From IMG/VR virus record IMGVR_UViG_3300021256_000025: DNA of 44,282 nucleotides; one strand, 5' to 3'. The position numbers and the translations under genes are program-made. Each line of letters begins with the position of its first letter. The first letter of the stretch is position 1. This document shows, in pieces, positions 20,828 to 43,589 of the stretch. The notes beneath the pieces were generated by a model that saw only the letters and a program-made list of their open reading frames with translations, was not told where the DNA came from and searched no databases. The stretch comes from a virus.

Positions 20828-22849
20828 TTAAATGCCCTCCAAATCTTTCCAACGTTCATAGTACTTTGCTCCATCTTTGGGCTTAAACATTGTATAAATT
20901 CCGTTTTCGTCAGCCTTCACAAAATCGTTTGTTTTAGGATCATACCGAGCCCACTGCCCCGTTCTGGTAGCATAACCTCGTATGCCACCAGGTGTACAAG
21001 GCGACTCTGCCAGCTTAACAGCCCGATCCTCATACTGATTTACCGTCCACCCGGGGTACTCATTGCCATGATAATGGACACTGTTTTTATCAACAAAATG
21101 ATTGTTAAGGTCGTCTGCCGTAGCGAACCCCTTAACCTTCATGACGTTTACACCCGTCGCTGATACCTTACCACTCTTGACCGCGTATTGCAAGTCGTTT
21201 TTTACAGTTTGTGTGTGGGTTCGGTTTTTATTTGCCGGTAAAGAGGATCGTGCACCATGAACCTTTGAAAATTGCCCGTTGGCGTTATTGCGCGGGTGCT
21301 TTCCTGGGTCAAAAGATGCGTCCAGCACGTAAAACCCGCTGTCGCGCCCAGATTCGCCCGCTGTCGCATTTTCGTCCCCGGCCTGACCGTTTCCTTGCCC
21401 CGGCTCATTCCCGGGCCGCTGTGGCGGTTTTGGAGCGTCGCCCCCAAAATCCATACCCGGCGGCATCATTTCACCCGGGTCCTCGATCTCATCCGGCGCT
21501 TTTTCAATATCCTCATCCGTAATGTTCGTCCAGACGCCGGTCCGTTCTGACTGCTGCTTCAATTCCTGCAGGCCCGTGCGCTTGGAAATCATGCCGGCAT
21601 TAAGAGCCGCCACCACATTGTCCGTGCCGGTCTTGGCCAGCTCCATGCGCTCCTTGTCGGACGGTTCCGATACCGGGTTAAAGTCAAAGTCAAGGTCGTC
21701 CGGTACCGCACCAAACATCGACACCATGAACGGCGGCAGCAGCTTATTCAGAATCGGCCGCAGGATGCTCTCCTGTTTTTCCCCGATCATGTCGTAATAA
21801 TTCTGCAGGTCGGACTCGCCGGTGGCGTTTAGCCCCGACGGCGACCGCCCGAAAAGTTTAGTAACCGGAATCTCGGCCGCGCCACTGATGTCCATAATGA
21901 ACTGCTGGTAGCAGTCTGCCAGGCCCCCGAACGTATACTGATGCGTTTCCAGACCGTCCGCAGCGTCCATGATCTGAATGCCCATGTTGCTCATCAGCCA
22001 ATTCTGGGCCGTCAGGGTCCGGTACAGCTCCGCCTGGCTCTGCGGATCCGTGGCCGCCAGCGTCTGCCCTATGTCGTTCATCTTCAGCACCCGCAGGTTT
22101 GCCATAAAGGTCAGCTGCGCGATGTTCCATGACACATTGTCGCGCTTCTTCAGCTCATCGAATACCGATTCAATGACAGAAGCGCCCCAGTACAGCTCCG
22201 CCTGCTTCTCCCAGAACGGCAACGTATTCCCGATGAACCGAATGCACCGGGTATGGTGCACCCGGGTCATGGTTCCGTCCACCGGGTCGGTTACGATGTA
22301 CGCGTCAGGAAGCCCATACTCTGGATCTGAAATGTCGTCCACCAGCTCGCTGGACGGACTAACACCGTTCCAGCGGTCCAGAATCATAAGCCCTTTAAAG
22401 TCACCCGGAACCATCTCCTCCAGCGCCAGCGGCATAGCCAACTGCTCCGGGCTGCCCTGGCCTTTGATCAGCATGATGCCAATGGCCCCGCCATACAGAC
22501 GGCCCCAGCACAAGCCCTCCTGGATCTTTTTGATGAGCTGTGTGCGTCGTAGCTCTACGTCTATTTTTTTGATGAGGTCCGGAGCCAGACCCGACGTGAT
22601 AGTAATCCAGTTTTTCAACATGTCGGCCGGAATGATGTCCACGATGCGCCGCACGATCCAGGAATCCCGGTACATGGCATTCAACGTACCAAAGTCGTTT
22701 GTCATACGGCTCATAACATACTGCGTGCTGTCTAACAGATTCGGCGTTCCGGCACCCAGACGCGCTAAAGGATTGCTGAATCCATCAAGCGCCGTCCCGC
22801 GCCGCACAACCAGCGCCTGTGCGCTTTTCTTTTTTTTACGCATTTGCAA
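20828..22849 (-). CDS. Portal protein (DUF1073-type) with G/P/Q-rich linker and about 130-aa C-terminal extra domain
   Basis: 673 aa; portal core to about aa 450, linker aa 455-505, KHPRNNANGQFS motif aa 516-527, distinct C-terminal domain ending IYTMFKPKDGAKYYERW. Confidence 0.75.
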   Translation of the reverse strand: MQMRKKKKSAQALVVRRGTALDGFSNPLARLGAGTPNLLDSTQYVMSRMTNDFGTLNAMYRDSWIVRRIVDIIPADMLKNWITITSGLAPDLIKKIDVELRRTQLIKKIQEGLCWGRLYGGAIGIMLIKGQGSPEQLAMPLALEEMVPGDFKGLMILDRWNGVSPSSELVDDISDPEYGLPDAYIVTDPVDGTMTRVHHTRCIRFIGNTLPFWEKQAELYWGASVIESVFDELKKRDNVSWNIAQLTFMANLRVLKMNDIGQTLAATDPQSQAELYRTLTAQNWLMSNMGIQIMDAADGLETHQYTFGGLADCYQQFIMDISGAAEIPVTKLFGRSPSGLNATGESDLQNYYDMIGEKQESILRPILNKLLPPFMVSMFGAVPDDLDFDFNPVSEPSDKERMELAKTGTDNVVAALNAGMISKRTGLQELKQQSERTGVWTNITDEDIEKAPDEIEDPGEMMPPGMDFGGDAPKPPQRPGNEPGQGNGQAGDENATAGESGRDSGFYVLDASFDPGKHPRNNANGQFSKVHGARSSLPANKNRTHTQTVKNDLQYAVKSGKVSATGVNVMKVKGFATADDLNNHFVDKNSVHYHGNEYPGWTVNQYEDRAVKLAESPCTPGGIRGYATRTGQWARYDPKTNDFVKADENGIYTMFKPKDGAKYYERWKDLEGI

Positions 22850-24167
22850 TCCTCCTCGCTTTAATCACGGTGGAAACAAAATAACGCAGGGCGTCACACG
22901 AATGGTCGTTGACCTTTAACGGCCGCTCTTTCCCGCCCTGCTCTATCGCCTTATTATCCCAGGCATAGGACTGATGCTCTTTTATCGTGTTTACGCAGCG
23001 CCGGTGAAAATGGATCCTGCGCCGCGTCAGCAACGTGTTCACGTTGCGAATTCCCTCGATAACGCTGTTGTCCGCGTTTATGGTTTCAACCGTCTCCTTC
23101 ATCCGCAAGCCCCGGTTCCGGAGCTCAATCTTAAAAGACGCCGCCGACGGGTCAATGATGGTCCCCGTAGGCCAGACGTCCACCGGGCACTTGTGAATGA
23201 ACCCCAGCAGATCGTCCGCATATTGGCTGTTGTCTTTTTCGTGGTTCCCGTCGGCCCGGCTGTCCCAGTAATACTCATCCACCACCCAGATGTCCTGCCC
23301 ATCATCCCAGATGTCCAGGTACACCATCGGGTTCACTGTGCCGTAGTCAATGGCCAGGAACCGACGCATGATGTGTGCATTTTTGTATATCCAGTCCAGC
23401 TTCTCATCCCCGAAAAGCAGGTCGTCAGACCAGGCGTCCCGGTAGATCGCGCCCTGGGCCATAACCCAGAGCCCCTGAATGAACCGCTGATAGAACACGC
23501 CAGTGTAGGTCGTTCGGTAACGTTCCCGGACCTCTTCAGTCAGCGACGGATTGTCATCCATCAGGAAGTGTATAAAAAGCAGTTTTTTCTGATCTGCTTT
23601 TTCAATCCAGTTTTTCAGGAACCAGTGCATCGGGCTGTCCGGGTTACAGTTAAACCACATTTTAGCTCCCGGAACGGAGCACCGGCCTGTGGCCTGGTTC
23701 ACAAAAGACTCCGGCATCAAGGCGGCCTCATCGCAGTAGAGCCCCGCCAGCGTAATGCCCTGAATCAAGTCCTGCGACGATTCATCCCGACCACCGAACA
23801 CGTAAAAATAATTGGTTTTGTCGTCCTTGGATATTACGATCAGGTTCTCTGTGCGCGACTCCTCGATGGTGAACCGCCGGATCATCAGTACCGGTTTTAA
23901 CCAGCTCCATACGTTACGCCGGAACGAACCTACGGTCTTTCCGCACATGGCAAAATTCTGGCCGTCGTAGGTGTCCATGGCCCATAGCACAAAACTGATG
24001 GCCATGGCTACCGTCTTCCCGGCACGAATAGATCCGTCAGCAATGATGCCGTTATGCTTTCGATACGGCGACTTCTCCGTCCACCACGTCAGCAGCTGCA
24101 TTTGCTTCAGGCTGAACCGGCTGAACTTTACGACCGGTTTTATTTGCAGTTTTCTTTTTACGGCCAT
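22836..24167 (-). CDS. terL: Terminase large subunit
   Basis: Walker A DGSIRAGKT; PBSX-type terminase layout; start at MAVKRK (RBS GGGGTGAG), alternative ATG at 24185. Confidence 0.85.
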   Translation of the reverse strand: MAVKRKLQIKPVVKFSRFSLKQMQLLTWWTEKSPYRKHNGIIADGSIRAGKTVAMAISFVLWAMDTYDGQNFAMCGKTVGSFRRNVWSWLKPVLMIRRFTIEESRTENLIVISKDDKTNYFYVFGGRDESSQDLIQGITLAGLYCDEAALMPESFVNQATGRCSVPGAKMWFNCNPDSPMHWFLKNWIEKADQKKLLFIHFLMDDNPSLTEEVRERYRTTYTGVFYQRFIQGLWVMAQGAIYRDAWSDDLLFGDEKLDWIYKNAHIMRRFLAIDYGTVNPMVYLDIWDDGQDIWVVDEYYWDSRADGNHEKDNSQYADDLLGFIHKCPVDVWPTGTIIDPSAASFKIELRNRGLRMKETVETINADNSVIEGIRNVNTLLTRRRIHFHRRCVNTIKEHQSYAWDNKAIEQGGKERPLKVNDHSCDALRYFVSTVIKARRIANA

Positions 24168-24615
24168 GCCGCTCACCCCACACATCGACGGCGCTGGCCT
24201 TGATAGCCTCGGTAAACCCGTCGTCCTCGTATTCCGTCAGCTGGCCGGCCGTTTTATCCGGCAACACCGTCTGCCCGATCGTGTCCCTGATATATTCCGC
24301 AGCCCGCACGTTCCCCTTGATGGCAGACGCGATCATCGCCACCAGAACCTTGTCCTGGGCAGTCATATTTGTGGCACTGTTTAGCGCCTCCACGAACGAC
24401 GTAACCTCGTGGATAGGTGCATCGCTTTCTTTGAACCATGGCAGCTGTAGCAGGTACTCAAGCCCCTCTCGCATCGTTCGCCGTTCGCGCTTTGATTTGC
24501 CAGAAGCCCTGCCTCCTTTGCGGCCCTTTTCCGCGGCGTTCGCTTTGGTTATCCGCGTAGCCTTCCCGTTGGCCAGGTTCTTCTTGGCGGCCTCGATCTG
24601 CGCCGGACTACGCAA
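24052..24615 (-). CDS. terS: Terminase small subunit
   Basis: 187 aa, basic N-terminus, ...EYEDDGFTEAIKASAVDVW pattern near the terL start; upstream of terL. Confidence 0.65.
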   Translation of the reverse strand: MRSPAQIEAAKKNLANGKATRITKANAAEKGRKGGRASGKSKRERRTMREGLEYLLQLPWFKESDAPIHEVTSFVEALNSATNMTAQDKVLVAMIASAIKGNVRAAEYIRDTIGQTVLPDKTAGQLTEYEDDGFTEAIKASAVDVWGERHGRKKKTANKTGRKVQPVQPEANAAADVVDGEVAVSKA

Positions 24616-25909
24616 TGACCTCTGCCTTGCCGCCGGTCAGCTGCTCCCAGCGTTCCACAATTACGTCGCAGTACACCGGGTCAAGCTCCATCATGTAGCA
24701 GGCCCTGTGTAGCTGCTCACAGGCAATCAGCGTCGACCCGGAGCTTCCAAATAGATCCAGCACCGTGTCGTCCCGCTGGCTGCTGTTTTTTATGCATTTA
24801 GCGCAGAGCGCTATCGGCTTCATGGTCGGGTGCTCGCCGTTCCGTTTCGGCTTATCAACGTAGATCAGCGTGCTGGCGTCCTCGGTGTTCACAACCTCCG
24901 CAGCCGGAACCCGCAGCACCAGGTTCTTGTTTCCCGACGCAAAATTGATCAGCATGGACCCGTCCGCATCCTGGCTCATAACTACCGGGAAGTTTTCGCT
25001 GATGGTCGTGCCCTGTTTCCGGCCCCCGAACCAGCGATGCTTCCCGCCGGCCTTCCAGCCATACAGAATCGGTTCATGTTGCCACTGAAAATCCTGTCGG
25101 CCCAGAGTAAAAGTGTTCTTGGCCCAGATCAGGCATTGCTTCAGCAGCAACCCAGAATCAACAAACGCCTGCCGGAACGTTAGCGACTCACTGTCCGCAT
25201 GGCAGATGTACACCGTAGCCCCGGGCTCCAGGACCTCCTCGGCCCGCTGGTAAAAAGAAAGCAGGAAGTCATAAAACTGACTCCCTGCCATTTTGTCGTT
25301 TTTGATTTTTAGGTGTTCTTTTGTACCGCCGGTGTAGTCGATGTTGTACGGCGGATCTGTGAACATCATGCTCATGGGCACCCCGCTGGTGAGCTTTGCC
25401 ACATCCGCAGCGTCGGTAGACGACCCGCACATCAACCGGTGTGCACCCAGCTGGTAAATCATGCCGGGCTTTGTTTTCGGTGTTTTGATTTTCTCCACCG
25501 CAGCCCCGAAGTCGAACCCGTCCTCCTCCGGTTCCGGATCTGGCAACTCGAACCCGAACGCCCGCATGTCAATGTCAGCGATTTGCAGCAGCTCCCCGTT
25601 CAGCAGCGACTCATCCCAGGACGCCAGCTCGGCCGTTTTGTTGTCGGCCAGCCTGTAGGCCCGTATTTCCTCTTCTGTGAGGTCGTCTGCCCGGACGCAA
25701 GGTACCTGCCGCATGCGTAACCGCTTCGCCGCCTTGAGCCGCGTGTGGCCGCATACGACCACATTGTCTTTGTCAATCACAATAGGCTGCCGGAACCCGA
25801 ACCGCTTGATCGACTCTGCAACCGGCTTCACAGCCGGGTCGTTTTTGCGCGGATTATGCTCATACGGCACCAGCTCCGACGGCTTCAGATACTCAATGTT
25901 CATGCTCAT
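24608..25909 (-). CDS. ParB-like nuclease domain fused to N6-adenine/N4-cytosine DNA methyltransferase
   Basis: ParBc pattern (PYEHNPRKND...CGHTRLKAAKRL), DPPY motif (MFTDPPYNIDY), FGSSGST AdoMet motif; start at MSMNIEY with RBS GGGAGG. Confidence 0.85.
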   Translation of the reverse strand: MSMNIEYLKPSELVPYEHNPRKNDPAVKPVAESIKRFGFRQPIVIDKDNVVVCGHTRLKAAKRLRMRQVPCVRADDLTEEEIRAYRLADNKTAELASWDESLLNGELLQIADIDMRAFGFELPDPEPEEDGFDFGAAVEKIKTPKTKPGMIYQLGAHRLMCGSSTDAADVAKLTSGVPMSMMFTDPPYNIDYTGGTKEHLKIKNDKMAGSQFYDFLLSFYQRAEEVLEPGATVYICHADSESLTFRQAFVDSGLLLKQCLIWAKNTFTLGRQDFQWQHEPILYGWKAGGKHRWFGGRKQGTTISENFPVVMSQDADGSMLINFASGNKNLVLRVPAAEVVNTEDASTLIYVDKPKRNGEHPTMKPIALCAKCIKNSSQRDDTVLDLFGSSGSTLIACEQLHRACYMMELDPVYCDVIVERWEQLTGGKAEVIA

Positions 25910-25926
25910 AACAGCCTCCCAGCCAA

Positions 25927-25960
25927 TAAAAAAAGCGGGCAGGTTTTTCACCTGTCCGCT
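25927..25960 (-). terminator. Intrinsic terminator 24 nt upstream of the methyltransferase ATG
   Basis: Minus strand AGCGGACAGG-tgaaaaa-CCTGCCCGCT (9/10 bp) followed by TTTTTTTA. Confidence 0.75.
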
Positions 25961-25984
25961 TCAGACACTTTTTGCATTATAGTC

Positions 25985-26013
25985 ATTATATCACACAATG
26001 AATTTTGAGTAAA
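25985..26013 (-). promoter_or_regulatory. Extended -10 promoter TTTACT-17-TGaTATAAT (second TATAAT at 25976..25981) firing into the 25927..25960 terminator
   Basis: Minus strand TTTACTcaaaattcattgTGtgaTATAATgacTATAATg read directly. Confidence 0.55.
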
Positions 26014-26016
26014 CCC

Positions 26017-26238
26017 CTACGTGATAATTTTTTTCCTTTGGTCGTTTCGCCGGCTTCGGAGCGGTTCCCCCTTTTTGGCCCGGCGCTTGTCCAGCTGTTC
26101 CAGAACCCAGTCGTACTCTTCCTGCGTGCAGTACAGACGCCGCTGCAGCCGCCGGTCGATCAGCTGCATCTTGGGCCTCCCTGCGCCTTCCCTGCGGCCA
26201 CCGTTGTGTTTCCGGCCGTCCTCTTTTTTCTCTTCCAT
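26017..26238 (-). CDS. Small basic protein (73 aa), possible DNA/RNA-binding regulator
   Basis: RBS GGAGGTGAGGGC-ATG; MEEKKEDGRKHNGGRREGAGRPK...RSRRNDQRKKIIT; only this 3' part of track ORF 26017..26556 looks real. Confidence 0.5.
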   Translation of the reverse strand: MEEKKEDGRKHNGGRREGAGRPKMQLIDRRLQRRLYCTQEEYDWVLEQLDKRRAKKGEPLRSRRNDQRKKIIT

Positions 26239-26284
26239 GCCCTCACCTCCACGGGCCCATATTAGCATAAAAGGACTTGAAAAA

Positions 26285-26716
26285 TCAAGCCCTTTTTTTG
26301 CTGTAAACCAGCGCTTCCCGTAGGATCTTACGCGGCATTTTAAACAGCTTGTACGCATTGTCCAGCACGCCGTAGTATTGCAGGCTGGGAACGCCGTGAT
26401 GCCGGTCCTCGTGCATGATGTACACCAGCGCCGGCCCGTAGCCGTCCACCCAGAGGTACTGCTTGTAGTAAAACCTTGGGTAACCTTCGTAGCGGTCCAG
26501 GCTGCGCTCGTCGCGCTCCGAAATTTCCCAGAGCAGCGCCGGAACCTTGCACCCATCCTCCCGCTCGATGGTGGCGTAGCTGCCGGTCTGTGAGCCCTTG
26601 AACATGAGCCGCCACCCGTCCAGCGTGGTGGTCCCTACGAACGCGGAGTCCGGGCACCGGTACTCCATCTGGTCCAGGTCCATGTTGGACCCGTAAGCAA
26701 TGTACAATTTACGCAT
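26285..26716 (-). CDS. Gamma-glutamylcyclotransferase (GGCT/AIG2/GGACT fold)
   Basis: LYIAYGSNMDLDQMEYRCP...GWRLMF...WEISERDERSLDRYEGYPRFY matches the GGCT pattern. Confidence 0.8.
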   Translation of the reverse strand: MRKLYIAYGSNMDLDQMEYRCPDSAFVGTTTLDGWRLMFKGSQTGSYATIEREDGCKVPALLWEISERDERSLDRYEGYPRFYYKQYLWVDGYGPALVYIMHEDRHHGVPSLQYYGVLDNAYKLFKMPRKILREALVYSKKRA

Positions 26717-26759
26717 TTTAACATCCTCCTTTTATTTGAACCGGGGCTGTGGGCCCCGG

Positions 26760-27656
26760 TTAGGCTGCCTGGCCGTGGCGCCATGCGCTGCAGCCCTGCA
26801 GGTTTGCCATCATGTGAGTGCGGCAGGTCTTGAACTCGTCGCCGATCAGGCCCAGCCGGAGCAGCCAGCAGCGGAACGTGTACTTCTCATTGTCGCTGAC
26901 GGTGCGTTCCATCTTGATGCTGCGGCTGTTGATGGCCAGCGCGCTGACCGCCAGACAGAACTGCACGTAGGCTTTGATCTTACCGGCGTGGGTGGTTCCG
27001 TTGAACAGCCGGAACTCTACGGTGCCTTTGCTGAACGTTGCGTGCAGGTTCAGGCCATGGTACCGGGTGTCGTTGTAGTGGTGGTGTTTGCCGTTTACGC
27101 TGGACCCCTGGGATTCGTACCACAGATGCTCCCATGCGTTCATGTTCGCAGGACGCTCGCCCTTTTCAATTCGGTCGGCCAGGTTGCAGTTAACCTTCTT
27201 GGTGTAGGTGCATTCCCGGCGGCCGGTGATGGCCAGGGCCTTGTACAGCATGTCCTCCTTGGACCGGAAGATCTTAACCAGGTTCAGCAGGCTGCGTGCG
27301 TCGTGCTTGTCAGCGCCAACGTGTACGTGGATGCCGCAGGAACCGTCGGCCTTTGCGCCTTTGCCCCGCAGGATCCGTACCACTTCCTGCACGTCTTCCA
27401 GGTCGTCGTAGGTGCAGATCGGGGTGACCACTTCGCAAGCATGGTCGGCATTGGTCAGGCTGCCGTCCCTCATGAACTTCCAGGTGCGGCCCTTGCGGTC
27501 GGTGCAGGTCCAGGCATCGTAGCCAATCTCGTAACCAGCGTACCGTGCGTGGGTTCCAAAGTATTCCGCAATCGCCAGGGCTGCGGTTTTCCGTTCGATC
27601 TTAACCAGCTCAACCTCTACTCCGAACGTCTGATTCCTTAAATCTAACTTTGCCAT
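26760..27656 (-). CDS. Amidoligase (glutamine-synthetase-fold COOH-NH2 ligase, Amidoligase_2 family)
   Basis: FGVEVELV, FMRDGSL...CEVVTP, SCGIHVHVG, GTVEFRLFNGT motifs; start at MAKLDL with RBS AAGGAGGA. Confidence 0.8.
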   Translation of the reverse strand: MAKLDLRNQTFGVEVELVKIERKTAALAIAEYFGTHARYAGYEIGYDAWTCTDRKGRTWKFMRDGSLTNADHACEVVTPICTYDDLEDVQEVVRILRGKGAKADGSCGIHVHVGADKHDARSLLNLVKIFRSKEDMLYKALAITGRRECTYTKKVNCNLADRIEKGERPANMNAWEHLWYESQGSSVNGKHHHYNDTRYHGLNLHATFSKGTVEFRLFNGTTHAGKIKAYVQFCLAVSALAINSRSIKMERTVSDNEKYTFRCWLLRLGLIGDEFKTCRTHMMANLQGCSAWRHGQAA

Positions 27657-27716
27657 GTTTGCGTCCTCCTTTATTTTCACCGGCCCCCGCGGGGCCCTTT
27701 GCCTTTCGTTGTGTGC

Positions 27717-27745
27717 ATATTAACTCTCATTTTTTGAAATGTCAA
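27717..27745 (-). promoter_or_regulatory. Promoter of the repeated cassette family (copy 2): TTGACA-17-TAATAT
   Basis: Minus strand gcTTGACATTTCAAaaaatgAGAGtTAATAT then leader gcacacaacgaaagg plus a GC hairpin. Confidence 0.65.
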
Positions 27746-27810
27746 GCTCTTTTTATTAAATTTTTAATTATTTTTAAAGGGCGCATAAACCCGCATGGTT
27801 GACAGGCTCG

Positions 27811-27848
27811 TGTAATAAAAGAGGACGGCGTGTGCATGCCGTCCTCTT
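27811..27848 (-). terminator. Intrinsic terminator ending the early operon
   Basis: Minus strand AAGAGGACGGC-atgcacac-GCCGTCCTCTT followed by TTATT, 5 nt after the 27853 stop. Confidence 0.75.
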
Positions 27849-27852
27849 GTTT

Positions 27853-28026
27853 TTACTCTTTTTTTCTTGTTTTTTCCCGCGGCCGTGACATTTGTTTGCG
27901 CCGCACCTGCAGCTCATGCAGGAAGCCTCGCAGCATAGCCGCCGGAATGATCACGGACCCGTTGCAATCTTTGATGTTCCGCAGGATCGTCCGCGCGTCC
28001 GCATTATCCGGCACAATGTAATTCAT
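27853..28026 (-). CDS. Small ORF (57 aa), translationally coupled to the sigma-like gene
   Basis: ATGA overlap with the upstream stop; MNYIVPDNADARTILRNIKDCNGSVIIPAAMLRGFLHELQVRRKQMSRPREKTRKKE; below the ORF-track length cutoff. Confidence 0.45.
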   Translation of the reverse strand: MNYIVPDNADARTILRNIKDCNGSVIIPAAMLRGFLHELQVRRKQMSRPREKTRKKE

Positions 28027-28553
28027 CCGTCCAACGCCTCCGCTCCATACAACCGCAACGCCAGCACCCGAACCAGTGACGCCTTCGCCTTGGCCACCAC
28101 CTGCCAGGTAGTATCGTGCTTTTCCGCAATGTCCTCGATGCTCATGCGCTCAAAATAAAACTCCACCAGCCACGGGTACCCGGCGTCCATTTTGATCGTG
28201 TTCAGGGCCCGGTCCATAACAGCCAGCTCCTGCCGGTCGCGCTCCAGCTTGGCCTGTACCGCCAAAATGCGGCCCTCCTGGCGTTCCTCCGGGGTGAGCT
28301 TCACCCCGGCCTGCTCCGACCACCGCACAATAGACTTACTGGTCTCCGTCACCTTTTCCCGCCGCAGATCTTCGATGTCTGCAGGCCAGCGATTGTGCAC
28401 GTTATCCATGAGCACCGGGTACGCATACAGCCGCTGCTCCGTTGCCTTGTATCCAGACATCCGTGGCGGCTGGCGCTGGGCCAGCACCAACGGAACGGTC
28501 TGCCGCACTGTTTCGATGATCAGCTTCCGGACCTCTTTGTCATTCATCGTCAC
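28023..28553 (-). CDS. Sigma-70 region-4-like late transcription regulator (Xpf/ArpU/RinA-like)
   Basis: C-terminal WLVEFYFERMSIEDIAEKHDTTWQVVAKAKASLVRVLALRLYG resembles a sigma region-4 HTH; last sizeable gene of the early operon. Confidence 0.55.
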   Translation of the reverse strand: MTMNDKEVRKLIIETVRQTVPLVLAQRQPPRMSGYKATEQRLYAYPVLMDNVHNRWPADIEDLRREKVTETSKSIVRWSEQAGVKLTPEERQEGRILAVQAKLERDRQELAVMDRALNTIKMDAGYPWLVEFYFERMSIEDIAEKHDTTWQVVAKAKASLVRVLALRLYGAEALDG

Positions 28554-39195: not shown

Positions 39196-40386
39196 ATGTC
39201 AGTATTCAAAAACCCCAACGGCCTGTGGTACGCCAGGATCTCAACCGGCCAGAAAAACGAAAAAGGAAACTACACCTACGTAACCAGCAAACACGGCCGC
39301 AAAAGCCGCGGTGACGCCCTCATGGACGAAGCAGAGCTCCGTGTGTTCGTAGCCAGCAATAAGGCCGACACCCTGACGCGGATCCGGAACCATGAGCTCC
39401 TGGACCGGTACATGGCCACCAAGGGCATCCGGAAAACAACGGCCAAAACCTATAAAAGCGCCGTGAACCACATCAAGCGCCTGCTGCCGGATATCCCCGC
39501 CCGGGATACCACCACCATGCACATGGAAGCATACCGCCAGGCTGTGCTCCGGGAACCGGTGGCCACATGTACCCACCGCACCCTGATCTCCCTGGTCAAG
39601 GCAGCCTTCACATGGGCCGCAGATAACGATATGATCATCAAGTCCCCGGCCCGGAACATGAAGCTGCCGGTCAAGGCCGAACCGGCCGGTATGCATGTGC
39701 AGATAGATCTGTTGCAGGAGATTCTGAACACAGCCAAAACCTACCGGTACAGCCAGCTGTACATTCCGCTGCTGTTGGCCGGCATGTGCGGGCTCCGGAT
39801 CTCTGAGATCTGCGGTCTGCAGGATAAAGACGTGACCGCGGACTGCGTCCAGGTGCGGTACAATTTCCTGCGGGCTGACAGCGCCCCCAGCCTGCAGCCA
39901 TTAAAGACAAAAGCAGCAGCCCGTGTGGTGCCCCTGATTCCCGCTGTAAGCCGCGAAATTAAGGAGTACAAGGGTTTTATCAAGGCGTGCCATAAAGCGG
40001 CCCTGCAGGCCCGTATGGAAGCCAAAAAGAACCCTGGCTTTTTAGACGGCGATGCGCCATGGGATGAGTCCGGCTTCTTCTTTGTGTTCCCCAAAGATGG
40101 CCGCCCCCACGCCAAAGAATATGTGGAGCGGCAATGGAAGCGGTTCAAAATGTCCCCGGAGATGCAGCCGCTGATCAGCAAACACCCGGAGCTGGCCAAG
40201 ATGCGGCTCCATGACTTCCGGCACTCCTTCGGGTCCAACCTGCGGTATGCCGGAGCGCCCATAGAGGACGTGACTGAGATCCTCGGCCACACAGATAGCA
40301 ACTTCACCCGGACCACCTACGCGCTGCCGATGCAGGGCACCCATGAACGCAGTATGGCGCGGTTTGCGAAACTTTGTGAAAAATGA
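39196..40386 (+). CDS. int: Tyrosine integrase
   Basis: C-terminal LHDFRHSFGSNLRYAGAPIEDVTEILGHTDSNFTRTTYA (R...HxxR...Y catalytic pattern); SAM-like N-terminal domain. Confidence 0.9.
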   Translation: MSVFKNPNGLWYARISTGQKNEKGNYTYVTSKHGRKSRGDALMDEAELRVFVASNKADTLTRIRNHELLDRYMATKGIRKTTAKTYKSAVNHIKRLLPDIPARDTTTMHMEAYRQAVLREPVATCTHRTLISLVKAAFTWAADNDMIIKSPARNMKLPVKAEPAGMHVQIDLLQEILNTAKTYRYSQLYIPLLLAGMCGLRISEICGLQDKDVTADCVQVRYNFLRADSAPSLQPLKTKAAARVVPLIPAVSREIKEYKGFIKACHKAALQARMEAKKNPGFLDGDAPWDESGFFFVFPKDGRPHAKEYVERQWKRFKMSPEMQPLISKHPELAKMRLHDFRHSFGSNLRYAGAPIEDVTEILGHTDSNFTRTTYALPMQGTHERSMARFAKLCEK

Positions 40387-41858: not shown

Positions 41859-43589
41859 TTAATTAAACTGAACCGGGTCCTGGGCAACAACCTGCATCTC
41901 AATCTGGACCTTTCCATTTTTGACAGAAACGCGCTGGATCTGGAAGCGTGTGTTTCTTTGCAGGATCATCTCCTGCTCATGCCCGGTCGATGTTTGATTA
42001 TCCTTCCCATTCCAGCTGGCGCTTTGAGCACCGTGACCGTATTTTGAAAACGGTTCAGCATACATCATCTTCGTGCCAGCTGGGCAAAGAATGCGCAGCT
42101 CTACCTCATCCGTAAAGCCTTTTTTATCGCAAACGGCTGTGCTGCAGAACCCGAATTCGGTAACGAGTTTTCCCTCCACGGCATCTTTTAAATCGTTTAC
42201 CATGCTGGGTTTTAAATATTGCGGATCTATACCAAGCAGTTTAGCAGCACCGGACGTCGACACGCCACGTCGAACATGCACATCATGGTCATAGCTGGAC
42301 TTGTCGATAATATCCGTCATGTCGTTGATCAGCTTTTTAACTTCGCCTTTTTTGAAGTGCCCGTAGCTGTTAACGCCGATATTATCCATATCGATTTTAC
42401 CAACGCCTTTGAACGCACTCGTGCCGTATTCAATGCCCCGCAGCGGTTCATTAAATTTGGAGAACGAACCGGTATAATCAAAAATTGCCTTTTTTTGAGC
42501 CGGAGTCGCGGCCTTCCAAGCCTCGGAACATTTATCAACAATTTTTTTGTGGATAGCCATATCGTCCGTCGGTAGCGGGGTCTTTTTAAACCCTTCAGCG
42601 CCCTGGTGATCAAAAGTTTTAAATTCATATTTGCTGCTATTCCCTTTTACCGCAGCAGATAAATTTTTTAAAGTTTGAATAGTGTTCTGAATATTGGTCT
42701 CCCTATCGGTGAAGCCAGGGTCCGTCATCGGAGTAATAAACGGGTCGTGCGGGCTGGATTTTGGTGCTTTCCCCGGAGCACTCTGCATTAATTCAACCGC
42801 CGATTTTGCCAGCAATTCCTCCACGCTGCTGGTTTTGGGTTTAAAGTCAACCTTCCCATACGGCGACTCCGCCACCGCGGCCTTGTACTCTTCGTAAGCC
42901 TTCTTCAGTTTTTCCTGATTGTCAACCTTCGCTGGCTGTGTTTTTACCGCGCCAATAGCCGTTTTATACTTGACCACCTTTTTCCAGGCTTCCTTTGCCT
43001 TGGCCGTGGCCTGCTTGTTTAAAAGGTAATTCTTCGCAGTTTTGTAATCAGAAGCCACCTTCTCCTGCAGGTCTTTCACCGGGTCAGGCTTTGACAGGTC
43101 AAAATAGGCAATATCAAAAGACTTATTCGGATCCTTGACCACTGTAGCTTTGTCTAACTGTGCGTAAATTTCGGGAAAAGCCGCAAGTTTCTCGTCTATT
43201 TCCTTCTTTTTCGCCTCCAAATCTTCTAACGATTTCGACCCATAAAGGCCGCCGTACTCAATCTGTTTGTACGCCTTATGGACCTCTGCCATTGTTTTCT
43301 TTTTCGGCGGTTCCACCGCCTTTTTAAGATTCTGCAGCAGCTGCGCCTTGGACCCTTTGAAGTGTTTCATTTTCGTGTGGATAGATGGCAGCAGGACCTT
43401 CTTTCCGGATTTTAAGGATTTACCAAAAGACGGTTTGAACTTTTTACCGTTCAGCTTCCCGCCGGCCCCGCCTTTGATTTCCCCGGTGCCCTCATCGATC
43501 AGGACCTTGGCCCCGTTGATCGTGCGCCAGATGTCCTCCCCGTCGCAGGCCCGGAGCCGAAGTGTGTTTATTTTTGTATTGTCAGGCAT
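41859..43589 (-). CDS. ADP-ribosyltransferase toxin (C3/Vip2/iota-type R-S-E fold, ExE variant) with about 350-aa Lys-rich N-terminal region
   Basis: AIFDYTGSFSKFNEPLRG, HVRRG, FGFCSTAV (STS-like), GHEQEMILQRNTRFQI (ExE) in the canonical order. Confidence 0.8.
   Translation of the reverse strand: MPDNTKINTLRLRACDGEDIWRTINGAKVLIDEGTGEIKGGAGGKLNGKKFKPSFGKSLKSGKKVLLPSIHTKMKHFKGSKAQLLQNLKKAVEPPKKKTMAEVHKAYKQIEYGGLYGSKSLEDLEAKKKEIDEKLAAFPEIYAQLDKATVVKDPNKSFDIAYFDLSKPDPVKDLQEKVASDYKTAKNYLLNKQATAKAKEAWKKVVKYKTAIGAVKTQPAKVDNQEKLKKAYEEYKAAVAESPYGKVDFKPKTSSVEELLAKSAVELMQSAPGKAPKSSPHDPFITPMTDPGFTDRETNIQNTIQTLKNLSAAVKGNSSKYEFKTFDHQGAEGFKKTPLPTDDMAIHKKIVDKCSEAWKAATPAQKKAIFDYTGSFSKFNEPLRGIEYGTSAFKGVGKIDMDNIGVNSYGHFKKGEVKKLINDMTDIIDKSSYDHDVHVRRGVSTSGAAKLLGIDPQYLKPSMVNDLKDAVEGKLVTEFGFCSTAVCDKKGFTDEVELRILCPAGTKMMYAEPFSKYGHGAQSASWNGKDNQTSTGHEQEMILQRNTRFQIQRVSVKNGKVQIEMQVVAQDPVQFN

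What the first reader, a model, noticed from the sequence alone, without database searches (positions are those of the whole stretch)
26285..27745. Insulated amidoligase + gamma-glutamylcyclotransferase cassette between the early and packaging operons
Seen:
- 26760..27656 carries FGVEVE, RDGS...CEVVTP, CGIHVHVG and TVEFRLFNGT motifs, which match the glutamine-synthetase-fold Amidoligase_2 family.
- 26285..26716 carries YGSNM...GWRLMF...ERDERSLDRYEGYP, which matches the GGCT/AIG2 fold.
- The pair, plus a 73-aa basic ORF, has its own promoter/leader cassette (27717..27745).
- Intrinsic terminators bracket it (27811..27848 and 25927..25960), so it is an autonomous transcription unit.

Established: comparative genomics (Iyer, Aravind and colleagues, 2009) predicted that phage/plasmid amidoligase-GGCT-(class II amidotransferase) operons add and trim gamma-glutamyl-type amide tags. 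To my knowledge no phage member has a defined substrate.

Inference: this could be ATP-dependent amide tagging of a host or phage protein, nucleotide or metabolite, used for takeover or counter-defence. The amidotransferase partner usually described is absent here, which makes this a minimal two-enzyme version.
Basis: partly seen in the sequence, partly recalled or inferred. Interest (0 to 1): 0.8.

Follow-up and report, generated by a model that had tools for sequence, protein, structure and literature searches.

The report
Phage amidoligase plus gamma-glutamyl cyclotransferase operon
This temperate phage carries a well-conserved two-enzyme gene pair, one enzyme predicted to attach glutamate to an amine and one to remove it, that is already known from comparative genomics and is common in gut phages and conjugative elements, but whose target nobody has identified.

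Summary
On the minus strand, 26760..27656 encodes an Amidoligase_2 protein (Pfam 7.5e-63) and 26285..26716 a GGCT-type cyclotransferase (Pfam 3.2e-12; predicted fold TM 0.81 to human GGCT). Both keep their catalytic residues and are under purifying selection.

The 73-aa basic ORF (26017..26238) is a real gene. It is fused to the C-terminus of GGCT in the closest relatives, so it belongs to the module.

A strong terminator and a near-consensus promoter precede the cassette. The "downstream terminator" sits 17 nt after a second promoter, in a conserved leader of the ParB-methylase/packaging operon. Insulation is therefore plausible but not clean.

The pair is not unusual:
- GGCT lies directly downstream of the amidoligase in 73/79 viral and 65/75 genomic loci.
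- It occurs in phages and in ICE-like elements of Firmicutes.
- Both genes have PHROG families and are annotated in deposited gut phages.
- The two-gene form without an amidotransferase is the norm in these loci.

New side findings:
- Catalytically dead amidoligase paralogues are common next to the active gene.
- The active enzymes are unusually basic.
- GGCT is fused to small adaptor domains in several lineages.
- DNA methyltransferases are frequent neighbours.

Verdict: a new member of a known, biochemically uncharacterised kind. Substrate unknown.

The parts
27819..27848 (.). Palindromic GC-rich hairpin with T-runs on both strands. It ends the upstream unit (sigma/ArpU-like ORF 28023..28553 and the 57-aa ORF 27853..28026).
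   Evidence: 13 pairs, 7 GC; -22.5 kcal/mol, z -6.07; conserved in L002-L005; an equivalent terminator is present in L006.
27717..27745 (-). Sigma-70-type promoter-like site, TTGACA-17-TAATAT.
   Evidence: 10/12 matches; both hexamers are nearly invariant in L002-L005. Activity not tested.
27682..27696 (-). 5'-leader GC hairpin (GGCCCC-GCG-GGGGCC), 6 nt upstream of the ribosome-binding site of the amidoligase.
   Evidence: L006 has a hairpin of different sequence at the same place. Role unknown.
26760..27656 (-). Amidoligase_2 (glutamine synthetase / YbdK-fold carboxylate-amine ligase), catalytically competent form, 298 aa, pI 9.0.
   Evidence: 7324 homologue clusters; invariant E14 E16 E75 H110 H112 R198 E214 R216; model pLDDT 93.4; best PDB match YbdK, E 2e-5; pN/pS 0.07-0.25.
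26739..26761 (-). Intercistronic GC hairpin (CCGGGGC-CCACA-GCCCCGG) with no T-run, just before the GGCT ribosome-binding site.
   Evidence: Stem kept and loop changed in L005 and L006. A stable hairpin (z < -2) is present in this spacer in 70/89 loci, against 88/184 for other spacers of the same size.
26285..26716 (-). Gamma-glutamyl cyclotransferase of the canonical GGCT type, 143 aa.
   Evidence: invariant Y8 G9 S10 N11 and E77; pLDDT 96.7; TM 0.81 to human GGCT, 0.54 to GGACT; pN/pS 0.06-0.42.
26259..26288 (-). Weak promoter-like site (TTGATT-18-TGcTAATAT) that overlaps the GGCT stop codon and a small AT-rich hairpin.
   Evidence: Read directly. Below the scan threshold (8/12). Conserved in L002-L004; the -10 is degraded in L005. 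Weak evidence only.
26017..26238 (-). ORF73: a small, very basic protein (pI 10.4) that belongs to the module. It is homologous to the C-terminal tail of GGCT fusion proteins.
   Evidence: 22 synonymous against 8 non-synonymous changes vs L005; the L006 206-aa ORF and P0124/125/127/128/130/131 are GGCT plus an ORF73-like tail; the profile recovers P0124 residues 138-186, E 2e-5. No Pfam, PHROG or NCBIfam family.
25976..26013 (-). Second promoter-like site (TTTACT-17-TGaTATAAT) with a second TATAAT box 3 nt downstream.
   Evidence: Conserved in L002-L005. Perfect 12/12 consensus in L006.
25928..25959 (-). Hairpin (GCGGACAGG-TGAAAAA-CCTGCCCGC) plus T7. It is the downstream boundary of the cassette and also the 5' leader of the ParB-methylase/packaging operon.
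   Evidence: z -2.5. The whole hairpin is inverted in L004 with the structure kept. Same stem with a different loop in L006.
24608..25909 (-). ParB_N + N6_N4 DNA methyltransferase (likely start ATG 25909). A recurrent neighbour, not shown to be a functional partner.
   Evidence: A ParB-methyltransferase cluster is present in 61/82 viral loci. A DNA methyltransferase lies within 4 genes in 56/81 viral and 27/80 genomic loci.

Best explanation
This is a three-part accessory operon of a temperate phage. The same module is found in many Firmicutes phages and ICE-like elements.

Proposed mechanism:
1. The amidoligase uses ATP to activate a carboxylate, almost certainly the gamma-carboxylate of glutamate as in every characterised enzyme of this fold, and joins it to an amine.
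2. The product is a gamma-glutamyl amide with a free alpha-amino group.
3. The GGCT cyclises that gamma-glutamyl group, releasing 5-oxoproline and the free amine.

Together the two enzymes make and break one bond. This amounts to a reversible gamma-glutamyl tag or a protect/deprotect step on a target that has not been identified.

Shown:
- Both families and folds, intact catalytic residues and purifying selection.
- Tight same-strand adjacency across about 140 loci.
- ORF73 as a split-off GGCT tail.

Inferred:
- Glutamate as the acyl donor, and the write/erase logic.
- My preferred guess for the target is an amine on, or bound to, a polyanion such as nucleic acid. This rests on the unusually basic ligase, the basic GGCT tail and the frequent DNA methyltransferase neighbours.
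For: Family, fold and active sites:
- Pfam and PHROG assignments.
- Amidoligase model pLDDT 93.4. Best PDB matches are YbdK, glutamine synthetases, Dop and gamma-glutamylmethylamide synthetase.
- The acidic, His and Arg residues on the central strands are invariant in 47 homologues.
- GGCT model has TM 0.81 to human GGCT. YGSN and the catalytic Glu (E77) are invariant.

Adjacency:
- GGCT lies directly downstream on the same strand in 73/79 viral and 65/75 genomic loci, with a median gap of 55-71 nt.
- The pair stays together in three different contexts: phage late region, ICE-like region with M23 peptidase and DUF6103, and a Dam-methylase context.

Selection: pN/pS is well below 1 for all three genes.

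Fusions: GGCT is fused to an ORF73-like tail, to DUF4314 or to DUF7678 in different lineages.

Charge: active ligases have median pI 9.3-9.45. Their catalytically dead paralogues in the same elements have pI 5.8-6.2.
Against: - There is no biochemical evidence for any member of the family. The acyl donor and the acceptor are both inferred.
- The fold match of the ligase to solved structures is distant (TM about 0.43, 10-14% identity).
- The GGCT is closest to the enzyme that acts on free gamma-glutamyl amino acids, not to GGACT, which acts on gamma-glutamyl amines such as epsilon-(gamma-Glu)-Lys. That fits a small-molecule substrate at least as well as a macromolecular tag.
- The methyltransferase neighbours may only reflect shared ancestry of the phage late region. 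They are absent from the ICE-like contexts.
- The GGCT allele has been swapped by recombination while the ligase stayed (5.5% against 28% nucleotide divergence to L005). This argues against a tight ligase-GGCT complex.
Confidence: 0.55

Rival explanations
1. Metabolic reprogramming. The two enzymes run a short gamma-glutamyl cycle on free amino acids: Glu + ATP + amino acid gives gamma-Glu-amino acid, which gives 5-oxoproline plus the amino acid. The net effect is to convert glutamate and ATP into 5-oxoproline, or to shift nitrogen and amino-acid pools. This would make the pair an auxiliary metabolic gene set.
For: - The GGCT is structurally closest to human GGCT, which acts on gamma-glutamyl amino acids.
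- The ligase is closest to YbdK.
- PHROGs files the GGCT under moron/auxiliary metabolic gene.
- One paper proposes a nitrogen-metabolism role for a phage that carries amidoligase, amidotransferase and GGCT, based on growth effects only (PMC10945688).
Against: - A futile cycle gives no obvious benefit to both phages and conjugative elements.
- It does not explain the strongly basic ligase, the dead paralogues, or the adaptor-domain fusions on GGCT.
- The cited growth evidence is indirect and comes from a different, five-enzyme proteobacterial cluster.
Confidence: 0.15
2. Cell-envelope modification. The ligase adds a gamma-glutamyl group to an amine of a cytoplasmic peptidoglycan precursor, for example the Lys or diaminopimelate side chain. 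The GGCT trims or recycles it. The result would change receptors or lysin sensitivity and so exclude competing elements.
For: - In the ICE-like loci the pair lies next to a membrane-anchored M23 peptidoglycan peptidase.
- A prophage paper, citing Iyer et al. 2009, describes a phage amidoligase as a cell-wall receptor modifier (PMC11318856).
- A terminator followed by its own promoter is typical of prophage-expressed conversion genes.
Against: - In phages the pair lies beside methyltransferases and terminase, not beside lysis or tail genes.
- Neither protein has a signal peptide or membrane segment in the translations.
- There is no Mur-ligase or Fem-type partner.
- The cell-wall statement in the literature is itself a prediction.
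Confidence: 0.12
3. Nucleic-acid modification pathway. Together with the adjacent DNA methyltransferase(s), the pair builds or edits an amide-linked group on a DNA or RNA base to evade restriction.
For: - A DNA methyltransferase from one of three unrelated families (ParB-N6/N4, C5, Dam D12) lies within 4 genes in 56/81 viral and 27/80 genomic loci.
- The dead paralogue sits directly after a ParB-methylase in Erysipelothrix, Gardnerella and Streptococcus phages.
- The ligase and ORF73 are basic.
- Amidoligase and amidotransferase genes co-occur with thymidine hypermodification genes in viral contigs (PMC8989533).
Against: - In the ORFs scanned, this phage shows no hydroxymethylase, kinase or other enzyme that would place an amine or carboxylate on a base.
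- Methyltransferases are absent from the ICE-like contexts.
- The co-location could be inherited synteny of one large phage group.
- No GGCT-fold enzyme is known to act on nucleic acid (my own knowledge).
Confidence: 0.12
4. Prophage-encoded defence or exclusion. The cassette is expressed from the lysogen and acts against incoming phages or plasmids.
For: - The terminator, consensus promoter and genes follow a moron-like layout.
- The module is carried by prophages and ICE-like elements, which often hold defence genes.
Against: - There is no match to 5027 PADLOC models.
- Its position is fixed within a conserved late-region order rather than a variable hotspot.
- There is no effector-like partner.
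Confidence: 0.06

Closest known systems
Phage/plasmid GS-like amidoligase operons predicted by Iyer, Abhiman, Burroughs and Aravind 2009 (Pfam PF12224 Amidoligase_2 with an Aig2/GGCT or amidotransferase-like neighbour)
   Same: Same two protein families, the same ligase-then-GGCT adjacency, the same mobile-element habitat, and the same lack of a known substrate. From memory, the Pfam description already names the Aig2 neighbour as the Firmicutes form.
   Different: Nothing essential. Lineage-specific details here are the split-off basic ORF73, the cassette's own terminator and promoter, and the methylase lying downstream instead of upstream. I could not open the 2009 paper, so its exact claims are cited from memory and from papers that cite it.
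Annotated amidoligase + gamma-glutamyl cyclotransferase pairs in deposited gut phages: Blautia phage NatCom_24097 (Ca. Heliusvirales), Terrisporobacter phage TPDSL_ph1 and Clostridium clostridioforme LM41 prophages. Faecalibacterium phage FP_Taranis carries the amidoligase, but I found no GGCT match in it.
   Same: Homologous proteins (42-57% identity), the same gene order, and a position just upstream of the terminase genes.
   Different: Those phages usually have the order ParB-methylase, C5-methylase, dead paralogue, amidoligase, GGCT, DUF4314, TerS. The window has no dead paralogue, no DUF4314, and the methylase lies after the pair.
Five-gene cluster of LUZ24-like Pseudomonas phages (COOH-NH2 ligase, Amidoligase_2, class II amidotransferase, ATP-grasp enzyme, AIG2)
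   Same: It contains an Amidoligase_2 and an AIG2/GGCT protein in one early-gene cluster (PMC3890496).
   Different: It has three further enzymes, larger amidoligases (385 aa), and proteobacterial lytic podophages as hosts. The window has none of the extra enzymes in the ORFs scanned.
Gamma-glutamyl cycle enzymes: YbdK / gamma-glutamylcysteine ligase plus GGCT (C7orf24)
   Same: These are the best structural matches for both proteins. The chemistry proposed here is the same make-and-break of a gamma-glutamyl amide.
   Different: The ligase is only distantly related (TM 0.43, no sequence-level PDB hit). It has a conserved C-terminal helical module absent from the Pfam domain and is strongly basic. 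It is carried by a mobile element, with no glutathione pathway around it.
Ligase/remover pairs built on the same logic: PafA/Dop (pupylation), and from memory PuuA/PuuD (gamma-glutamyl-putrescine) and BtrJ/BtrG (a gamma-glutamyl protecting group removed by a GGCT-fold enzyme in butirosin synthesis)
   Same: An ATP-dependent gamma-glutamyl amide ligase is paired with an enzyme that removes the group. Dop is among the fold matches of the ligase.
   Different: The resemblance is functional only. There is no Pup-like tag gene, no polyamine catabolic genes and no carrier protein here. Membership was not claimed or tested.

Membership tests
Amidoligase_2 (PF12224), GS/YbdK-fold carboxylate-amine ligases | Significant match to the family profile over its full length | tested here: met
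   213.1 bits against a cutoff of 22; residues 8-237 cover profile positions 2-244 of 245. phrog_2443 at 1.7e-98.
Amidoligase_2 (PF12224), GS/YbdK-fold carboxylate-amine ligases | Glutamine synthetase / YbdK-type fold | tested here: met
   Model pLDDT 93.4. The top PDB matches are YbdK 1r8g (E 2e-5, probability 1.00, TM 0.43), then glutamine synthetases, Dop and GmaS. The relationship is distant but consistent.
Amidoligase_2 (PF12224), GS/YbdK-fold carboxylate-amine ligases | Conserved metal- and ATP-binding residues (E-x-E strand, a further Glu, H-x-H strand, Arg, E-x-R strand) | tested here: met
   E14, E16, E75, H110, H112, R198, E214 and R216 are invariant in 47 homologues; all except R198, which falls between assigned secondary-structure elements, lie on predicted beta-strands. 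Their equivalence to specific glutamine synthetase residues is inferred, not superposed. In contrast, 0 of 29 short paralogues keep any of these motifs.
Amidoligase_2 (PF12224), GS/YbdK-fold carboxylate-amine ligases | ATP-dependent ligase activity | not testable with these tools
   No biochemical data were found for any family member.
Gamma-glutamyl cyclotransferase fold (GGCT / GGACT / AIG2) | Profile match and GGCT fold | tested here: met
   PF06094 at 47.5 bits against a cutoff of 22.8. Model pLDDT 96.7. TM 0.81 and 27-28% identity to human GGCT; 0.77 to B. subtilis YkqA; 0.54 to GGACT.
Gamma-glutamyl cyclotransferase fold (GGCT / GGACT / AIG2) | YGSN substrate-binding loop and catalytic glutamate | tested here: met
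   Y8-G9-S10-N11 and E77 are invariant in 45 homologues. E77 aligns with the Glu that is replaced in the human GGCT mutant entries.
Three-component amidoligase + class II amidotransferase + GGCT system (proteobacterial form) | A class II glutamine amidotransferase-like gene in the cluster | tested here: not met
   None among the 31 window ORFs scanned against Pfam or PHROGs, and none among the recurrent neighbour clusters of 161 related loci. The window is the two-enzyme Firmicutes form.
Moron-type autonomous transcription unit | Own promoter, with terminators on both sides, and expression independent of neighbouring operons | tested here: inconclusive
   The upstream terminator and promoter are present and conserved. 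The downstream hairpin and T-run follow a second promoter and belong to a conserved leader of the next operon. Expression was not measured.

The most novel reading that the evidence does not exclude
The module is a reversible gamma-glutamylation system aimed at a nucleic-acid-associated target: a DNA or RNA base amine, a DNA-bound amine or a DNA-binding protein. Phages and conjugative elements would use it when their DNA is made or enters a new host. In this reading the acidic, catalytically dead paralogues act as regulators or decoys of the basic active ligase. The small domains fused to GGCT (ORF73-like tail, DUF4314, DUF7678) would direct the eraser to its target. This would be a new kind of covalent mark in conflicts between mobile elements and hosts.
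Probability: 0.15. Interest if true: 0.8.

Novelty: new member of a known kind. Interest (0 to 1): 0.3.

Why it matters
The pair is one of the most common enzyme-coding accessory modules of gut Firmicutes phages. The amidoligase has more than 7000 protein clusters at 90% identity and matches in at least 584 species genomes, yet it has no known substrate.

This window adds no new principle. It does offer a compact version that is easy to clone: one active ligase, one GGCT, one small basic protein, its own promoter and no dead paralogue. That makes it a convenient starting point for biochemistry.

If the target proved to be DNA, RNA or a host defence component, it would define a new modification chemistry used by both phages and conjugative elements.

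Tried and rejected
1. Split gene or intron in the amidoligase. Several tblastn hits came in two pieces spanning 1.3-1.8 kb. ORF analysis showed these are two tandem paralogues, one active and one dead, not an interrupted gene.
2. Solved structures by sequence. There is none for the amidoligase, either with the single sequence or with a 47-sequence profile.
3. Known defence systems. No PADLOC hit for the amidoligase, GGCT or ORF73.
4. Known RNA families in 25700..28100. Only a sub-threshold L20_leader match (25.1 bits against 58.7, E 0.045) over the late-operon leader, which I treat as chance. No tRNA genes.
5. ORF73 family. No Pfam, PHROG or NCBIfam match. Only 7 word-indexed homologues, and 16 hits in 1.84 billion representatives with a profile. 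This is too narrow to reveal other architectures beyond the GGCT fusion.
6. The late-leader motif AAAGTGTCTGAAGCGGNCAGG was found in only 3 viral contigs, all close relatives.
7. Literature on DUF4314 and DUF7678: none.
8. The label "virulence-related protein" on the dead paralogues. I suspected the Streptococcus suis V10 fragment as its origin, but that concerns orf2/folC and is unrelated.
9. Iyer et al. 2009 (PMC3268129) is not held in the library.
10. Close relatives among deposited phages: none at the nucleotide level. The nearest are IMG/VR contigs L002-L005.
Full report
**What is there**

All genes of the finding lie on the minus strand.

- The amidoligase ORF is 26760..27656 (298 aa). 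Its ATG follows AAAGGAGGA by 8 nt.
- The GGCT ORF is 26285..26716 (143 aa). It starts 43 nt after the amidoligase stop codon.
- ORF73 is 26017..26238. It starts 46 nt after the GGCT stop codon.

Family matches:

| Protein | Pfam | PHROG |
|---|---|---|
| Amidoligase | Amidoligase_2, E 7.5e-63, nearly full profile length | phrog_2443 "amidoligase enzyme", 1.7e-98 |
| GGCT | GGACT, 3.2e-12 | phrog_2520 "gamma-glutamyl cyclotransferase", 1.9e-43 |

The window is a temperate phage with a contractile-tail structural module:
- integrase at 39196..40386;
- RecT, SbcC-like and DnaD-like early genes;
- a sigma/ArpU-like ORF at 28023..28553;
- after the cassette: ParB-methylase, small and large terminase, portal, capsid, sheath and baseplate.

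The placement "between early and packaging genes" is therefore right.

**Are the enzymes intact?**

Amidoligase:
- In 47 homologues of 54-85% identity, E14, E16, E75, H110, H112, R198, E214 and R216 are invariant.
- In an AlphaFold model (pLDDT 93.4), all of these except R198, which falls between assigned elements, lie on the central beta-strands.
- The best solved-structure matches are YbdK (E 2e-5), glutamine synthetases, the depupylase Dop and gamma-glutamylmethylamide synthetase.
- The match is distant (TM about 0.43). No PDB entry is detectable by sequence, even with a profile. No member of this family has a solved structure.
- A C-terminal two-helix module (residues about 255-290, motif RLGLxGxEFKTxR) lies outside the Pfam domain and is as conserved as the active site.

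GGCT:
- The model (pLDDT 96.7) superposes on human GGCT with TM 0.81. The TM to GGACT is only 0.54.
- The YGSN loop and the catalytic Glu (E77) are invariant in 45 homologues.

Selection against four close relatives (L002-L005, 88-98% nucleotide identity):
- pN/pS is 0.07-0.25 for the ligase and 0.06-0.42 for GGCT.
- pN/pS is 0.11 for ORF73 (22 synonymous against 8 non-synonymous changes to L005). ORF73 is therefore a real gene.

**Transcription signals**

Upstream of the cassette there are:
- a strong palindromic terminator at 27848..27819 (z -6.1);
- a TTGACA-17-TAATAT promoter-like site at 27745..27717.

Both are conserved in L002-L005. L006, whose ligase is only 57% identical, has an equivalent terminator and a weaker promoter-like stretch read by eye, then a GC hairpin and the ribosome-binding site.

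Each of the two enzyme genes is preceded by a GC-rich hairpin just before its ribosome-binding site. The stems are kept while the sequence changes.

Across all loci, the ligase-GGCT spacer holds a stable hairpin (z < -2) in 70 of 89 cases. Other same-strand spacers of the same size do so in 88 of 184 cases. Fisher's exact test gives p = 1e-6, but this is overstated because the loci are related. These hairpins mostly lack a T-run. A role in mRNA stability or in setting the ligase-to-GGCT ratio is my inference only.

- The hairpin and T7 at 25959..25928 follow, by 17 nt, a second promoter (TTTACT-17-TGaTATAAT, 26013..25985) that carries a second TATAAT box 3 nt further on.
- This leader is better conserved than the flanking genes. 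In L006 it is a perfect 12/12 promoter followed by the same stem with a different loop, directly before the methylase start.
- In L004 the whole hairpin is inverted with its structure preserved.

The hairpin may end the cassette transcript. It equally looks like a promoter-proximal terminator that controls the methylase/packaging operon.

**How common is the pair?**

Database counts:
- In GenBank phages, 99 records hold the ligase and 45 the GGCT. These include Terrisporobacter and Bacillus phages and at least 29 PV0364xx gut phage genomes; Faecalibacterium phage FP_Taranis matches the ligase only. The one record I opened is classified Ca. Heliusvirales and already annotates both genes.
- A paper on Clostridium clostridioforme prophages lists the same two PHROGs side by side.

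I called and clustered ORFs in 81 viral and 80 genomic loci.
- GGCT is the next gene on the same strand in 73 of 79 viral loci and 65 of 75 genomic loci that have room downstream. The median gap is 55-71 nt.
- No amidotransferase appears among the recurrent neighbours.

The two-enzyme form is therefore the norm, not a minimal variant.

**Contexts**

1. Phage late region, the most common. The usual order is HNH, zinc-ribbon protein, ParB-N6/N4 methylase, C5 methylase, (dead paralogue), ligase, GGCT, DUF4314 or a small zinc-ribbon protein, TerS, TerL, portal.
2. ICE-like regions with a membrane-anchored M23 peptidase, DUF6103 and a ribbon-helix-helix protein, and no methylase nearby.
3. A context with a Dam-type D12 methylase.

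A DNA methyltransferase lies within four genes in 56/81 viral and 27/80 genomic loci. This is suggestive, but shared ancestry of the phage late region cannot be separated from a functional link.

**Extra findings that bear on mechanism**

1. Dead paralogues.
   - Many elements carry a second, shorter paralogue (about 215-280 aa) just upstream of the active ligase.
   - None of 29 such proteins keeps any of the four catalytic motifs. Among 126 full-length proteins, 104-115 keep them.
   - The short forms keep the fold-level similarity and the C-terminal module, and fall in the same PHROG.
   - The proteins annotated "virulence-related protein" or "virulence protein" after the ParB-methylase in Erysipelothrix phage phi1605 and Gardnerella phage AB1 are such dead forms; Streptococcus Javan phages carry a similarly short and similarly annotated homologue that I did not inspect.
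   - The window has only the active form.
2. Charge. Active ligases are strongly basic (median pI 9.3-9.45; the window protein has pI 9.0 and net charge +10). Dead paralogues from the same elements are acidic to neutral (5.8-6.2).
3. GGCT fusions. GGCT is fused at its C-terminus to DUF4314, to DUF7678 or to an ORF73-like basic tail in different lineages. The ORF73-type fusion occurs in the closest GGCT relatives and in L006. A profile of ORF73 recovers that tail. ORF73 is therefore a split-off third part of the module.
4. Recombination. Between the window and L005 the ligase differs at 5.5% of nucleotides, GGCT at 28% and ORF73 at 13.5%. The break is at the intercistronic hairpin. GGCT alleles are exchanged independently of the ligase. 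This argues for coupling through a shared product rather than through a tight protein complex.

**Most likely mechanism**

Established knowledge:
- Characterised enzymes of the glutamine synthetase / gamma-glutamylcysteine ligase fold activate a gamma-carboxylate of glutamate, free or at a protein C-terminus, as an acyl phosphate and pass it to an amine.
- GGCT-fold enzymes attack a gamma-glutamyl amide with the free alpha-amine. They release 5-oxoproline and the amine.

The only bond on which both enzymes can meet is a gamma-glutamyl amide with a free alpha-amino group. I therefore propose that the ligase makes X-NH-(gamma-Glu) with ATP and that the GGCT removes it again. This would be a reversible tag or a protect/deprotect step.

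The acceptor X is unknown. The basic ligase, the basic ORF73 tail and the methylase neighbours lean towards something on or near nucleic acid. The GGCT's closeness to the enzyme that acts on free gamma-glutamyl amino acids, and the ICE contexts next to a peptidoglycan peptidase, lean towards a small molecule or a cell-wall precursor.

I give the core chemistry about 0.55 confidence. No single target gets more than about 0.15.

**Comparison with what is known**

The module is the Firmicutes form of the amidoligase-Aig2 operons predicted by Iyer and colleagues in 2009. The same families occur in a five-enzyme cluster of LUZ24-like phages.

I found no experimental work on the family. The only functional claims are a speculative cell-wall role and an indirect nitrogen-metabolism proposal. 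PADLOC has no model for it.

**Verdict**

The claim of an unusual minimal version is not supported. This is a new member of a known, widespread and still uncharacterised kind. Interest is modest (0.3). The open question of the substrate is real, but this instance does not sharpen it much beyond offering a compact cassette. The side observations (dead paralogues, charge contrast, GGCT adaptor fusions) give concrete handles for experiments.

Noticed in passing
window 25928..26013 (minus strand); L006:2927-3010; L004 and L005 in alignment A3: Conserved leader in front of the ParB-methylase/packaging operon. It has an extended -10 promoter with a second TATAAT-like box 3 nt downstream, then a hairpin plus T7 about 17 nt later, then the methylase start. 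It is better conserved than the flanking genes. The hairpin is exactly inverted in L004. The layout resembles promoter-proximal terminators that need an antiterminator for late-gene expression.
   Followed up: partly
L001:5109-5873, L082:2590-3273, L083:2617-3267, and 29 short ORFs in the surveyed loci: Catalytically dead, acidic paralogues of the amidoligase lie next to the active gene or directly after a ParB-methyltransferase. They are about 215-280 aa, lack all four active-site motifs and keep the C-terminal RLGLxGxE(F/Y)K module. They are annotated "virulence-related protein" or "amidoligase enzyme" and share phrog_2443 with the active enzymes.
   Followed up: yes
proteins P0160, P0161, P0173, P0206, P0221 (GGCT+DUF4314); P0178 (GGCT+DUF7678); P0124-P0131 and L006:2310-2930 (GGCT+ORF73-like tail): GGCT is fused to three different small C-terminal domains in different lineages. 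The same domains occur as separate genes right after GGCT in other loci. No literature exists on DUF4314 or DUF7678.
   Followed up: partly
window 26739..26761 and the equivalent spacer in 89 related loci: A stable stem-loop without a T-run sits between the amidoligase and GGCT genes in 79% of loci. Other spacers of the same size have one in 48% of cases. The sequence is not conserved but the structure is.
   Followed up: partly
window 26285..27656 compared with L005:1856-3190: Mosaic divergence. The amidoligase is 5.5% diverged at the nucleotide level, the adjacent GGCT 28% and ORF73 13.5%. The switch occurs at the intercistronic hairpin, which indicates recombinational exchange of the GGCT allele.
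   Followed up: partly
window 41859..43589 (minus strand): A 576-aa protein combines a minor-head-protein (MuF-like) region with a C-terminal ADP-ribosyltransferase toxin-like domain (phrog_16625, phrog_115, phrog_3895). This is the kind of virion-delivered effector described as a polyvalent protein.
   Followed up: no
window 24052..24615 and 22836..24185 (minus strand): The ORF between the methylase and the large terminase matches only phrog_2412 (unknown function). As called, it overlaps the terminase ORF by 134 nt. It is presumably the small terminase subunit, but the start sites are unresolved.
   Followed up: no
window 25921..26044 (minus strand): Sub-threshold Rfam match to the ribosomal protein L20 leader (25.1 bits against a gathering score of 58.7, E 0.045) over the late-operon leader. 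It is probably chance.
   Followed up: no
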